This document shows positions 11,600-37,932 of a DNA stretch of 64,000 nt, one piece after another (position 1 is the stretch's first letter; each line of letters opens with the position of its first letter). Origin of the DNA: the human T2T-CHM13v2.0 reference genome, Homo sapiens; assembly GCF_009914755.1 (NCBI RefSeq), contig NC_060943.1. One strand, 5' to 3'. Position numbers and translations under genes: made by a program. A model generated the notes under the pieces. The model did no database searches and was not told the origin of the DNA. It was given only the letters and a program-made list of their open reading frames with translations.

Positions 11600-12130
11600 A
11601 CCCTGGTTCCTGCCTCCCATGAACCCCCGCCAGCCCCGGCCTTGGGGGTTCTTGCACTCCCCCTCTGCCGCCCTCGTCCCATCCGCCAGGTCCCGGCCCC
11701 TCACCTGCAGCCCCCGGCCCCGCTAGCAGCAGCAGCAGGGGCAGCGCCCGCACGGGTGGCGGTGGCGGTGGCGGCGACATCGGGCGACGGCGGCGGCGGC
11801 GGCCACGGGCCCCCGGCCCCATGGCGGCCGGCCGCGACCCTCCCCTCCTCCCTCCTTCCCTGGGCTCCGGGCGCGTCCCGGGCCAGCCTCCGCGCCGCCA
11901 ACTTCGCCGAAGTGAGGCGGCCGGGCCGCCCCGCCCCCAGCCCTCGAAGGCTCGCCCCGCCCCGGGGCCGGCCCAGCGCGCCCCCGCCCCCCGCCCGGCC
12001 TCCCGGGGTCCCTGCCCACCCTCCACCCGCACAGCCTGGGACGCGCGGACCCTCGGAAACCCAGGCCGAGCATGCAGTGAGACGCGGGCAGAACCCGGAG
12101 TGGCGGGCACACCCAACCTCGTGAACGCCC
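11600..12130 (-). promoter_or_regulatory. NOTCH3: NOTCH3 CpG-island promoter and 5' UTR (TATA-less, GC boxes)
   Basis: Very high GC/CpG content; several CCCCGCCC Sp/KLF boxes at 11920-12000 just upstream of the ATG exon. Confidence 0.88.
11705..11822 (-). CDS. NOTCH3: NOTCH3 exon 1 coding part (118 bp): start codon and signal peptide
   Basis: GCCGCCATGG Kozak context; MGPGARGRRRRRRPMSPPPPPPPVRALPLLLLLAGPGAA; CAG|GTGAGG donor. Confidence 0.97.
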
Positions 12131-27874: not shown

Positions 27875-28317
27875 TGATCTCTCGACCTCGTGATCTGCCC
27901 GCCTTGGCCTCCCAAAGTGCTGGGATTACAGGCGTGAGCCACTGCGCCCACCCTTTTTTTTTTTTTTTTTTTTTCCTGTAGAGATACAGTCTTGAACTCT
28001 TGGCCTCAAGCAATCTTCCTGCCTCAGCCTCCTGAAGTGCGGGAATTACAGGCATGAGCCACCATGCCCAGCCTGGAATTCACTTCGATGGAGCGTCTGC
28101 AGCTCTGTGGCTCTGGGAAAGGGTAGAGGGGAGGCCATTCTCAACCCCTTCTGGGGGTGCTGGTTTCCCCACCCCAGAAGCTTCCATTGGGTCTGACGCC
28201 CTGTTCTCTGTCCTGTCTTCTCAGGCCCTGGGCTCCGGACCACAGCAACCTTCCATGCCCATGGCCTCACCCTGGATCTTATCTCCTCTTGCTCACCTCT
28301 GAACTGTGATATTCTGA

Positions 28318-29772
<1,455 letters not shown>

Positions 29773-31879: not shown

Positions 31880-34110
<2,231 letters not shown>

Positions 34111-34152
34111 AGTGAGAATTCTACTACTGGACCATCAATGCAGCCCTCGGAA

Positions 34153-34186
34153 TGAGTGAGTGAGTGAGTGAGTGAGTGAGTGAGTG
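34153..34186. repeat. (TGAG)n tetranucleotide repeat
   Basis: Direct reading; ~8 units. Confidence 0.9.
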
Positions 34187-34239
34187 ATGGAAAGTGGTCT
34201 GGAGGCAGGGAGAGGGACAGGCCGATCATGCGAGGAATC

Positions 34240-34930
34240 CCAGCCCAAGCCCCCGAGGTCCCCGCTCCCGCCCTAAAAGATGCACGCGCCAAGCCCTTGG
34301 GCCAGAAAAAAAAAAAAAAAACGGGCCGGGATTGGCTCAGGCTGGGGGAGGCGGGTCTACGACGAGACACGATTTTCTATTGGCTTACTCGCCAGGACTC
34401 TGCCCAATCGACGCGATCGTCTTCCCCAGAAGACCCCCGCCTCCCTCCCGCCGGCGGCCGCGGAGGCGGAAGAAGGCGCCTTTCCGTCGCCCTAGCAACC
34501 GTCAGCGGATCTCCGTCGCCCGGGCAACTGTCCCAGGCCTCCCGTCAGCCTTTGCCTGGGCCCCTCCGGTCACTCGGACAACCGCTACCCGTTCCGGTCA
34601 ACCATCAACCCGTCCCCCGTCACCCCGGCAACCATCGCCGGACCCACCTACCCCTGGACGCCGTCCTGGTCCTGTCCGCAGGCCTCCTCGCCCCAAACCT
34701 CCGCCGCGGGCTCCGACGTCCGCGACCCCACGTCTCAGGGGCTCCCTCCTCCTCCTGCCCGTCTTCTCGCCTCCCCGGGGCGGGGGGCATTGCTCCTCCC
34801 CTGGCAGGGGGGCCCCGGGTTGGACCCGGCTCTGGGGGTCCCTGCTCGGTCGGGACAGTGGGACCGCCCTGTGCTGTGGCCGCGCGCAGCCCCCCGCAGG
34901 CTTCGGCGCTCGCACTCTTGCGTGGGACTG
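34240..34930. promoter_or_regulatory. Orphan intergenic CpG island with promoter architecture (3 CCAAT boxes, GC box, ETS site, 4 RFX X-boxes)
   Basis: ATTGG 34331-34335 and 34379-34383, CCAAT 34404-34408, GCGGAAG 34466-34472, X-boxes at 34486, 34515, 34569 and 34619. Confidence 0.75.
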
Positions 34931-35164
34931 TCCAACCGCCACAGGGAGCTCTTCAAAATGCAAGCCATGTCCCTTCCCTGCTGAAAACCCTCCCCTGGCT
35001 CCCCTTGAGAATCGAATCCAAGCTCCTCGCAGCCCCTGGCGATCTGGCTGTGTGGCCTCTTCTCTGAAGCCTCCTCGCTCACTCTGCCTTAGCAAGGCCC
35101 TGGCCTGCGTGTTGTAACTCCAATGACCCAAGCTTCTTCCCGCCTGGGACCTTCCTAGTCACTA

Positions 35165-37400
<2,236 letters not shown>

Positions 37401-37452
37401 GAGCCACTGTGGTCGGCCCTGACCCCTACTCTTAAGCTAGGATTACCCTCAT

Positions 37453-37932
37453 CAGCGCTGCCACACACAACTTTCTTCACTGATGCGGCAATTGAGCACT
37501 TGAAATACAGCTGGTATGGCCAGGCACAGTGGCTCACGCCTGTAATCCCAGCACTGTGGGAGGCCAAGGTGGGCAGATCACTTGAGGTCAGCAGTTCGAG
37601 ACCAGCCCGGCCAACATGGTGAAACCCCATCTCTACTGAAAATACTAAAATTAGTCAGGCCTGGTGACGCTCCTGTAGTCCCAGCTACTCGGGAAGCTGA
37701 GGCACAAGAATCGCTTGAACCCGGCAGGTGGAGGTTGCAGTGAGCCTAGATTGCGTCCACTGCACTCCATCCAGCCTGGGCGACACAGCAAGACTCTGTC
37801 TCAAGGGGAAAAAAATGAAATACAGCTGGTGGGACTGAGCACTGCATTTTCATTGTATTTCATTTCAATTAACATACATTTAAGTTGAAGTAGCCAAATG
37901 TGGTCAGCAGTATTGTATTCAGAGTAGCACTG
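37453..37932 (+). mobile_element. MER3-like hAT element split by an Alu (37518-37815)
   Basis: CAGCGCTG..ACTTTC..TGATG..ATTGAGCACTTGAAA / GACTGAG..TAGCCAAATGTGG matches the MER3 pattern; Alu TSD TGAAATACAGCTGGT at 37501-37515 and 37816-37830. Confidence 0.7.
37849..37864 (-). terminator. EPHX3: Candidate EPHX3 poly(A) signal region (non-canonical AATACA / AATGAA)
   Basis: No AATAAA or ATTAAA seen between the stop codon and the Alu; AATACA at 37854-37859 overlapped by two AATGAA. Confidence 0.55.

What the first reader, a model, noticed from the sequence alone, without database searches (positions are those of the whole stretch)
34320..34660. Orphan CpG-island promoter with an array of four RFX X-boxes plus three CCAAT boxes and no recognisable gene
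Seen: a unique CpG island between L2 remnants carries GTCGCCCTAGCAAC (34486-34499), GTCGCCCGGGCAAC (34515-34528), GTCACTCGGACAAC (34569-34582) and GTCACCCCGGCAAC (34619-34632). It also has CCAAT boxes at 34331, 34379 and 34404, a GC box and an ETS core. Known: three of the four match the RFX consensus GTNRCC(N0-3)RGYAAC exactly, and RFX plus NF-Y is typical of ciliary, testis and MHC-II promoters. Inference: this is a real promoter or promoter-like enhancer 22 kb upstream of NOTCH3 and 3 kb past the EPHX3 3' end. It could drive an unannotated lncRNA, be the relic promoter of a lost gene, or supply an RFX input to NOTCH3. The shared CCGTC...CAACC flanks suggest the array arose by local duplication.
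Basis: partly seen in the sequence, partly recalled or inferred. Interest (0 to 1): 0.8.

Follow-up and report, generated by a model that had tools for sequence, protein, structure and literature searches.

The report
Transcribed orphan CpG island with RFX-site array
A stand-alone CpG island between EPHX3 and NOTCH3 really does carry a duplicated row of RFX-type binding motifs next to CCAAT boxes, but the spot is already published as a transcribed enhancer and the motifs lie inside the transcribed part, so it is a modest addition, not a new kind of element.

Summary
Window 34201-35050 is a unique CpG island (GC 0.68, CpG o/e 0.81). Three exact X-box consensus matches and one two-mismatch copy sit in one orientation within 147 nt, with three CCAAT boxes just upstream. 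None of 5000 local shuffles gave two or more exact matches. Two of the boxes come from a 29-nt tandem duplication.

"No recognisable gene" is true only of human RefSeq. ORF 34228-35067 (+) is the published "ORF7": an ENCODE candidate enhancer whose poly(A)+ RNA rises on Mtr4 knockdown and carries ribosome footprints in HEK293T cells. Four primates and the sperm whale have gene models on the + strand. These models splice from a consensus donor at 33970 into the island near 34397. In them the X-box array is exonic and two of the three CCAAT boxes are intronic. The reading frames differ between species, so the RNA looks non-coding.

At amino-acid resolution, X1 and X4 stay consensus-compatible out to the whale. 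Genome-wide only 9 loci hold such close X-box pairs, and 4 of the other 8 lie within 300 bp of an annotated TSS.

RFX and NF-Y binding is plausible but untested here. My verdict is a new member of a known kind: an orphan CpG-island enhancer/promoter. Interest is modest.

The parts
34201..35050 (.). CpG island, 850 bp, GC 0.68, CpG o/e 0.81, single copy in the genome
34486..34499 (+). X-box 1, an exact consensus match. It has a CpG at positions 3-4 and holds a TAG that stops the spliced 33864-ATG frame in human.
34515..34528 (+). X-box 2, an exact consensus match with a CpG at positions 3-4. It is the tandem duplicate of X-box 1.
34569..34582 (+). X-box 3, a degenerate copy with two mismatches (positions 6 and 10)
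34619..34632 (+). X-box 4, an exact consensus match
34476..34532 (+). Two 28-nt copies at a 29-nt start-to-start spacing (79% alike) that carry X-boxes 1 and 2
   Evidence: family D2
34331..34335 (-). CCAAT box (ATTGG on the + strand), inside RefSeq 'silent region_10268' and intronic in the primate models
34379..34383 (-). CCAAT box (ATTGG on the + strand), lying in the pyrimidine tract before the acceptor
34404..34408 (+). CCAAT box, 82 nt before X-box 1 and exonic in the primate models
34467..34472 (+). ETS-like core CGGAAG
34500..34504 (+). CGTCA (CRE half-site) directly after X-box 1. Two further copies start at 34543 and 34618.
34228..35067 (+). 279-aa ATG ORF, identical in length, pI, Arg% and Lys% to the published eRNA 'ORF7'. 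It contains the whole X-box array.
33767..33970 (+). Upstream exon of the other-mammal models, with ATG at 33864. It ends at the only strict consensus donor (CAG|GTAAG) found on the + strand in 33000-36000.
34397..35117 (+). Last coding exon of the primate models. The acceptor at 34396|34397 fits the siamang, macaque and Cebus models. The Hylobates alignment resumes at 34391.
   Evidence: and my reading
33421..34117 (.). RefSeq functional element 'H3K27ac-H3K4me1 hESC enhancer'
34288..34367 (.). RefSeq functional element 'silent region_10268' (silencer class)
35576..35581 (+). ATTAAA, the only AATAAA/ATTAAA hexamer on the + strand in 33001-37800. It is a candidate 3' end and lies inside an Alu.

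Best explanation
This is a transcribed orphan CpG-island regulatory element, an enhancer with promoter-like features. It is already catalogued as an ENCODE candidate enhancer. It gives a poly(A)+ plus-strand RNA that rises on Mtr4 knockdown (shown in print). Inside the transcribed part it holds a row of RFX-type X-boxes, built by duplication of a roughly 29-nt unit and in part older than the primate-whale split. Three NF-Y-type CCAAT boxes lie just 5' of the row.

Inferred, not shown: RFX dimers on the array and NF-Y on the CCAAT boxes keep the island open and help set how much it fires. X-boxes 1 and 2 have a CpG where the strongest sites have T. They could therefore behave as the methylation-responsive (MDBP-type) kind of RFX site. 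The long ORFs are a by-product of GC-rich, stop-poor sequence.
For: - Motif cluster: 3 exact X-boxes, with 0 of 5000 local shuffles reaching 2.
- Island: real and single-copy.
- Duplication: a 29-nt tandem pair.
- Identity with the published ORF7: 34228-35067 is 279 aa, pI 11.88, Arg 10.0%, Lys 3.2%. These values equal Table 1 of PMC12667400 (read: sections 5, 6, 10 part 1 and 15, plus passages). That paper describes ENCODE enhancer sites with bidirectional poly(A)+ transcription, eRNAs raised at least twofold on Mtr4 knockdown, and ribosome footprints in HEK293T cells.
- RefSeq functional elements abut or overlap the island.
- Gene models in 4 primates and the sperm whale cover the island on the + strand. 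Four of the five align to the 33864-33970 exon and its donor. The whale's start matches by eye.
- Conservation at amino-acid resolution. X1 and X2 stay consensus-compatible in 4 of 4 primates, and X4 in 3 of 4. In the whale, X1 differs at positions 3, 4 and 9, all degenerate positions. X4's five residues are unchanged, and X3 is compatible with a full match.
- Genome-wide, only 9 loci hold two consensus X-boxes 1-31 nt apart, against 2 matches for the backwards control. Of the other 8 loci, 4 are within 300 bp of an annotated TSS.
- Precedent for 5mC standing in for T at MDBP/RFX1 sites: PMC3185043 discussion (passages).
- Precedent for several X-boxes tuning one promoter: PMC3245922 (search listing and abstract only).
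Against: - No binding, methylation, CAGE or chromatin data could be read here, so RFX and NF-Y occupancy is pure inference.
- All four left half-sites carry C at position 3. From memory, RFX matrices strongly prefer T there, so the sites may be weaker than the IUPAC match suggests.
- Duplication alone explains the multiplicity once a single site exists.
- The conservation evidence comes from 5 predicted proteins aligned to the human DNA. Third codon positions are unseen and the primates are too close to be informative. The whale lacks the left half of X2, and the Hylobates model breaks position 4 of X4.
- The paper's ORF start (34228) and the models' exons put the + strand start upstream of the CCAAT boxes and the array, which is not the classic promoter layout.
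- The RefSeq element over the first CCAAT box is labelled a silencer.
- The paper itself argues that ORF7 is translated.
Confidence: 0.55

Rival explanations
1. The X-box row is an inert by-product. One chance motif was copied by minisatellite-like duplication inside a CpG island. The island is conserved only because it is unmethylated and transcribed. On this reading RFX plays no part.
For: A 29-nt tandem pair plus a third copy 76% alike explain 3 of the 4 boxes. The word CCGTC recurs 8 times on the + strand and never on the - strand, as in a decayed repeat. No binding data are available. All left half-sites have C at position 3. The whale appears to lack part of X2.
Against: Inferred changes in other species fall mostly at degenerate positions. 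These are whale X1 positions 3, 4 and 9, Cebus X1 position 3, siamang X1 position 9 and gibbon X4 position 8. Close X-box pairs are rare genome-wide and half of the others sit at TSSs. Tandem Repeats Finder does not see a live array, so the copies are old yet still match the consensus.
Confidence: 0.3
2. The island is chiefly the last exon of a spliced, mostly unstable long non-coding RNA. That RNA starts upstream, at about 33.4-33.9 kb or, as in the Cebus model, at the NOTCH3 divergent promoter. On this reading the island is not itself a start site, and the motifs act, if at all, as an intragenic enhancer.
For: The donor at 33970 is the only strict consensus donor on the + strand in 33000-36000. 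Three of 4 primate models fit the junction 33970|34397, and the fourth resumes 6 nt away. Cebus residues 1-82 map to 11821-12063 (+), and Hylobates residues 4-51 map to 28224-28367. The published ORF7 starts at 34228, upstream of all the boxes.
Against: Human RefSeq has no such transcript. The paper states that its 53 eRNAs lack introns. The gene models are computational, and I know only from memory that such models need RNA support. A CpG island with o/e 0.81 usually marks a start site of its own (recalled).
Confidence: 0.25
3. It is a young protein-coding gene (eORF7). On this reading the repeated DNA motif simply encodes a repeated Pro/Ser/Arg-rich peptide.
For: PMC12667400 reports ribosome footprints with periodicity, CPAT 0.98, and stable expression of a tagged synthetic ORF7.
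Against: Two overlapping + strand frames (295 and 307 aa) are open across the same DNA, and two long - strand ORFs overlap them, as expected for 70% GC sequence. The five animal models read the array in different frames. Macaque, Cebus and Hylobates use the 307-aa frame, siamang uses a third frame, and the whale switches frame. The paper itself says the human form is a species-specific extension without clear purifying selection. Only 5 proteins, all from these gene models, turned up in the three word-based searches. Candidates known from samples alone were left out of those searches.
Confidence: 0.07
4. It is an MHC class II-type S-X-X2-Y module served by RFX5/RFXAP/RFXANK, CREB, NF-Y and CIITA.
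For: X-box 1 contains CCTAGCAAC followed by CGTCA, which recalls the X1/X2 boxes of class II promoters (my recall). CCAAT boxes are nearby.
Against: In that module the Y box follows X/X2 at a fixed short distance on the same strand (recalled). Here the island has only three CCAAT/ATTGG sites, all 5' of the array, the nearest 82 nt before X1. None lies 3' of any X-box within 34201-35050. CGTCA abuts the X-box without the usual spacer.
Confidence: 0.02

Closest known systems
eRNA 'ORF7' of Vlasov et al. 2025 (Genes Dev 39:1468; PMC12667400)
   Same: It is the same DNA. ORF 34228-35067 (+) matches in length (279 aa), pI 11.88, Arg 10.0% and Lys 3.2%. The paper lists it as an intergenic ENCODE enhancer whose eRNA rose on Mtr4 knockdown, linked by EnhFFL to NOTCH3, EPHX3 and ILVBL.
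   Different: The paper treats it as a translated ORF and does not mention RFX (0 occurrences) or the motif array. It reports no significant homology outside primates for its ten ORFs. Here a sperm-whale model aligns at 60% identity over 164 aligned positions. I could not open its supplementary ORF7 alignment (Fig. S11G).
Orphan CpG islands acting as promoters or enhancer boosters (recalled: Illingworth et al. 2010; Pachano et al. 2021, the latter cited in PMC12667400)
   Same: It is a CpG island far from any annotated TSS (9.9 kb and 22.6 kb). It is transcribed and is flanked by an element annotated as an hESC enhancer.
   Different: This one carries a rare close-set X-box row. Whether it is unmethylated or carries H3K4me3 was not testable here.
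Promoters with several X-boxes (C. elegans DAF-19 targets, PMC3245922; human pairs at C2orf81/WDR54, CAMK2A, MVK/MMAB and H2AL3 found here)
   Same: There are two or more consensus X-boxes within a few tens of bases.
   Different: Those sit within 300 bp of an annotated TSS. This one has none in human RefSeq, and the array is downstream of the apparent + strand start.
Methylation-responsive MDBP/RFX1 sites, such as the first exon of COL1A2
   Same: X1 and X2 have a CpG at the position where T is preferred, and they lie in transcribed sequence just after a possible start. 5mC can stand in for T at MDBP sites (PMC3185043 passages; PMC8106159 passages).
   Different: No methylation or binding data exist for this site. 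X3 and X4 have C at position 3 outside a CpG.
MHC class II S-X-X2-Y enhanceosome module
   Same: There is an X1-like CCTAGCAAC with an adjacent CGTCA, plus CCAAT boxes.
   Different: The order and spacing are wrong. No Y box lies 3' of any X-box.

Membership tests
CpG island (Gardiner-Garden and Frommer criteria, recalled) | Length over 200 bp, GC over 0.5, CpG observed/expected over 0.6 | tested here: met
   34201-35050 is 850 bp with GC 0.68 and o/e 0.81
Orphan CpG-island promoter/enhancer | No annotated TSS nearby | tested here: met
   The nearest RefSeq TSSs are EPHX3 at 9,873 bp and NOTCH3 at 22,595 bp. No gene row lies between 11912 and 37830.
Orphan CpG-island promoter/enhancer | Transcription starts in the island (CAGE or PRO-cap, H3K4me3, unmethylated) | not testable with these tools
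   Only indirect evidence exists: the published poly(A)+ eRNA over the island and gene models in 5 mammals. Both place the + strand start upstream of the array.
RFX X-box (dimeric RFX1-3 type site) | Match to GTNRCC(N0-3)RGYAAC | tested here: met
   3 of 4 sites are exact and the fourth has 2 mismatches
RFX X-box (dimeric RFX1-3 type site) | Two good inverted half-sites (T at position 3 mirroring A at position 12; matrix recalled) | tested here: inconclusive
   The right halves are AGCAAC, GGCAAC, GACAAC and GGCAAC. All four left halves have C at position 3. No matrix library was on hand.
RFX X-box (dimeric RFX1-3 type site) | Occupancy by an RFX protein | not testable with these tools
   There is no ChIP-seq access. 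No paper links RFX X-boxes with this locus. One search found 2 papers, both unrelated by title and abstract.
RFX X-box (dimeric RFX1-3 type site) | Motif kept across species beyond the neutral expectation | tested here: inconclusive
   At protein level, X1 and X2 are compatible in 4 of 4 primates and X4 in 3 of 4. In the whale X1, X3 and X4 are compatible and X2 is not. No genome alignments were available.
MHC class II S-X-X2-Y module | A Y box (ATTGG) a short fixed distance 3' of X/X2 on the same strand (recalled) | tested here: not met
   The only CCAAT/ATTGG sites in 34201-35050 are at 34331, 34379 and 34404, all 5' of X1
Protein-coding gene | One reading frame conserved between species | tested here: not met
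   The models of 5 species use different frames over the array. Two overlapping human frames are open.
Published eRNA ORF7 (PMC12667400) | Same place and same protein properties | tested here: met
   279 aa, pI 11.88, Arg 10.0% and Lys 3.2% match Table 1. The hg19 coordinates land within about 20 bases by my offset arithmetic (inference).
Structured RNA element | Fold more stable than shuffles, or an Rfam match | tested here: not met
   z-score +0.66, with 148 of 200 shuffles folding at least as well. There is no Rfam match at E<=1 within 34332-35193. The listed matches are to the flanking Alu copies or weak hits on the island's left edge (34147-34256, 34295-34331).

The most novel reading that the evidence does not exclude
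The island is a deeply conserved (primate to cetacean) RFX- and NF-Y-driven switch that human annotation has missed. It launches a spliced non-coding RNA from the EPHX3-NOTCH3 gap. Its two CpG-bearing X-boxes make RFX binding depend on methylation. The element would then work as an activator when unmethylated and as an RFX1-type repressor platform when methylated, tuning NOTCH3 or its neighbours in ciliated, germ-line or tumour cells.
Probability: 0.1. Interest if true: 0.6.

Novelty: new member of a known kind. Interest (0 to 1): 0.35.

Why it matters
NOTCH3 is a disease gene (CADASIL, several cancers) whose distal control is only partly mapped. One upstream enhancer in this same gap has been shown to drive it (PMC7679411, passages). 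A second conserved element here, carrying one of only about nine close-set X-box pairs in the genome, would be a cheap and specific target for CRISPRi and ChIP tests of RFX input to NOTCH3, EPHX3 or ILVBL. The work also bears on the claim that this enhancer RNA encodes a protein. The reading frame is not kept between species, while the DNA motifs appear to be kept. That pattern favours constraint on the DNA over constraint on a protein.

Tried and rejected
Paralogue or copied promoter: the 701-nt island matches only itself in the genome, so it is not a duplicated promoter or a retrocopy.

Structured or known RNA: Rfam at E<=1 gave only Alu-derived SRP/miRNA-like hits in the flanks and two weak hits at 34147-34256 and 34295-34331. 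The array folds no better than shuffles.

Live tandem repeat: TRF found only the TGAA/TGAG microsatellites, the A16 run and a short 8-nt period at 34605-34627. The array is an old, decayed duplication.

Protein-coding gene: rejected on frame inconsistency. The third protein search, with the whale model, found only itself.

MHC-II module: rejected on order and spacing.

GC skew as a guide to the direction of transcription: the three annotated TSSs I checked in the window do not behave alike, so I drew nothing from it.

Clone-name search 'AC004257' for a GENCODE lncRNA: 0 papers. The clone name was from memory and may be wrong.

Published NRF2-dependent NOTCH3 enhancer: a simple ARE-cluster scan (3 sites within 40 bp) found none among 75 single sites. 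I did not pursue it.

Attribution of the RefSeq labels: I know only from memory that 'silent region_N' comes from ATAC-STARR-seq in GM12878 and that the 'hESC enhancer' labels come from a ChIP-STARR-seq study. PMC9435738 (passages) uses the same terms and says about 75% of silent regions coincide with promoters. The link to this particular feature is unverified.

Supplemental Fig. S11G and Table S1 of PMC12667400 (ORF7 alignment, read counts) could change the conservation and translation statements.

Full report
WHAT IS THERE

The consensus GTNRCCNNRGYAAC occurs three times in the 64-kb window, at 34486, 34515 and 34619, all on the + strand. Whole-window shuffles give a mean of 0.28. When only the local, GC-rich sequence is shuffled, 0 of 5000 shuffles reach two matches. 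The fourth site (34569) has two mismatches and is absent from the 13 one-mismatch hits.

CCAAT lies at 34404, and its inverted form lies at 34331 and 34379. The surrounding 850 bp (34201-35050) form a CpG island with GC 0.68 and o/e 0.81. The island is single-copy in the genome. X-boxes 1 and 2 lie in two copies of a 28-nt unit spaced 29 nt apart and 79% alike. A third copy of the 25-nt core (76% alike) carries X-box 4. The word CCGTC recurs eight times on the + strand only.

HOW UNUSUAL IT IS

Two whole-genome pattern searches looked for two consensus X-boxes in one orientation separated by 1-31 nt. They gave 17 rows that collapse to 9 loci, against 2 matches for the backwards control pattern. 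Of the other 8 loci, 4 lie within 300 bp of an annotated TSS: C2orf81/WDR54, CAMK2A, MVK/MMAB and H2AL3. The remaining 4 lie 2.4 to 22.6 kb from one. The locus studied here is 9.9 kb from the nearest TSS.

Close-set X-box pairs are thus rare and often promoter-associated. That argues the array is worth taking seriously, but it does not show function.

IS THERE REALLY NO GENE?

Human RefSeq lists none between NOTCH3 and EPHX3. It does list a 'H3K27ac-H3K4me1 hESC enhancer' at 33421-34117 and a 'silent region_10268' at 34288-34367.

A literature search for NOTCH3, EPHX3 and 'intergenic' led to Vlasov et al. 2025 (PMC12667400). Its Table 1 lists 'ORF7' at hg19 chr19:15,334,128-15,334,967, with 279 aa, pI 11.88, Arg 10.0% and Lys 3.2%. 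The ATG ORF at window 34228-35067 (+) has exactly those values, so it is the same ORF.

According to the sections I read (5, 6, 10 part 1, 15), the site was taken from ENCODE candidate enhancers with bidirectional poly(A)+ transcription, more than 2.5 kb from any gene. Its eRNA rose at least twofold on Mtr4 knockdown in HEK293T cells, and the ORF passed a ribosome-footprint periodicity filter. The paper links the site to NOTCH3, EPHX3 and ILVBL through the EnhFFL database. It never mentions RFX.

GENE MODELS IN OTHER MAMMALS

I translated the two long + strand ORFs of the island and searched named protein sources. This found predicted proteins in siamang, Cebus, crab-eating macaque and Hylobates moloch and in the sperm whale. 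A third search with the whale protein found only itself. Candidates known from samples alone were left out of these searches.

Aligned back to the window, the siamang and macaque models start at the ATG at 33864. They run to 33968-33971, where the sequence reads CAG|GTAAGT. This is the only strict consensus donor on the + strand in 33000-36000. The models resume in the island.

The junction 33970|34397 fits the siamang, macaque and Cebus models. The Hylobates alignment resumes at 34391. By eye, the whale model resumes near 34460, and it shares 10 of the first 12 residues of the 33864 start. The Cebus model adds a first exon that maps to 11821-12063 (+), antisense over NOTCH3 exon 1. The Hylobates model adds one at 28224-28367.

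In all these models the X-box array is exonic. The boxes at 34331 and 34379 are intronic, the latter within the pyrimidine tract before the acceptor. I know only from memory that such models need RNA evidence.

CODING OR NOT

Two overlapping + strand frames (295 and 307 aa) and two long - strand ORFs are open over the same DNA. The animal models read the array in different frames. In human, the frame that starts at 33864 and splices at 34397 stops at the TAG inside X-box 1, where the siamang model reads W. The paper itself calls human ORF7 a species-specific extension without clear purifying selection.

I conclude that the long ORFs reflect composition. Any constraint lies on the DNA or the RNA, not on a protein. 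The RNA shows no unusual fold (z = +0.66) and no Rfam match within the island right of 34331.

ARE THE X-BOXES KEPT?

No mammalian genomes were on hand, so I used the predicted proteins as a proxy. I kept only matches collinear along each protein and dropped the off-register rows.

- X1 stays consensus-compatible in all 4 primates. Cebus changes position 3 and siamang changes position 9.
- X2 is unchanged at amino-acid level in all 4 primates.
- X4 is compatible in 3 of 4 primates. The Hylobates model changes position 4, which breaks the left half.
- X3 stays imperfect in the primates. Siamang's copy is one step closer to the consensus.
- In the whale, X1 differs at positions 3, 4 and 9, all degenerate, and becomes a T-at-position-3 site.
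- In the whale, the five residues over X4 are unchanged and X3 is compatible with a full match. X2 has lost about two codons of its left half.

This is suggestive, not decisive. Third codon positions are unseen, the primates are close relatives, and there is only one distant species.

MECHANISM

Shown:
- A unique CpG island.
- A duplicated X-box row.
- CCAAT boxes.
- Published transcription through the island.
- Cross-species gene models.

Inferred: RFX dimers and NF-Y bind and help keep the island open and active. X1 and X2 carry a CpG where the best sites have T. MDBP, later identified as RFX1, binds such sites when the C is methylated, and binds T-containing versions regardless of methylation (PMC3185043 discussion; COL1A2 example in PMC8106159). 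These two boxes could therefore respond to methylation. The inferred C-to-T changes in Cebus and whale are the kind that would turn such a site into a methylation-independent one.

An MHC-II-type module is excluded by the order of the boxes.

The available transcripts begin upstream of the CCAAT boxes. The published ORF begins at 34228 and the models' exon ends at 33970. The array is therefore downstream of the + strand start. A separate start inside the island remains possible but unshown.

COMPARISON AND NOVELTY

The locus is already in print as a transcribed enhancer with a long ORF. Orphan CpG islands with promoter or enhancer activity are a known class. What seems to be new:
- The X-box array, which the paper does not mention and for which a search for NOTCH3, X-box and RFX found 2 unrelated papers.
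- Its rarity genome-wide.
- The spliced models and sequence similarity reaching a cetacean, where the paper reports no significant homology outside primates.

This makes it a new member of a known kind, with modest interest (0.35).

LIMITS

I had no chromatin, binding, methylation or CAGE data, no mammalian genome alignments and no repeat library, so 'L2' is unverified by name. The flanks do have old diverged copies elsewhere. The supplementary files of the key paper were closed.

Noticed in passing
G000 chrX:37397500-37397673: This is a tandem array of consensus X-boxes about 40 nt apart (start to start). It lies 276 bp upstream of the annotated start of H2AL3, a testis histone variant (gene name from the annotation; the testis role is recalled), inside an intron of SYTL5.
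   Followed up: no
G000 chr1:21026190-21026266; chr2:74430182-74430240; chr5:150826747-150826803; chr12:109548105-109548162: These are other close X-box pairs. One is a 21-nt-unit array 22.6 kb from EIF4G3. Pairs also lie at the C2orf81/WDR54 and MVK/MMAB bidirectional starts, and 106 bp from the CAMK2A start.
   Followed up: partly
window 11821-12063 (+): Residues 1-82 of the Cebus gene model map here at 84% identity, antisense over NOTCH3 exon 1 and its promoter. This suggests a NOTCH3-divergent transcript that splices 22 kb across to the island. In the human sequence I saw no clean donor at the end of the match.
   Followed up: partly
window 28224-28367 (+): Residues 4-51 of the Hylobates model map here at 98% identity. 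A pyrimidine tract and an AG directly precede the match.
   Followed up: no
window 34346-34355 and 34436-34445: A perfect 10-nt inverted repeat (GGGAGGCGGG / CCCGCCTCCC) brackets the CCAAT boxes at 34379 and 34404 (pair I8).
   Followed up: no
window 34084-34187 and 34306-34321: TGAA- and TGAG-type microsatellites lie just left of the island. An A16 run inside the island supplies the lysine run of ORF7.
   Followed up: no
window 33640-33980: This stretch contains the upstream exon of the animal models. It has a copy 71% alike over 339 nt at chr6:139930253-139930572, so the exon looks derived from an old interspersed repeat.
   Followed up: partly
window, about 10 kb upstream of the NOTCH3 TSS (not located): PMC7679411 reports an NRF2/MAFK-bound enhancer with three overlapping AREs in this same gap, and its deletion lowers NOTCH3. 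My simple scan for 3 ARE-like sites within 40 bp found none.
   Followed up: partly
window 34194-35117 and 34180-35067 (+); 34598-35131 and 34735-35082 (-): Four long ORFs overlap across the island on both strands. This illustrates how stop-poor GC-rich sequence mimics coding potential.
   Followed up: yes
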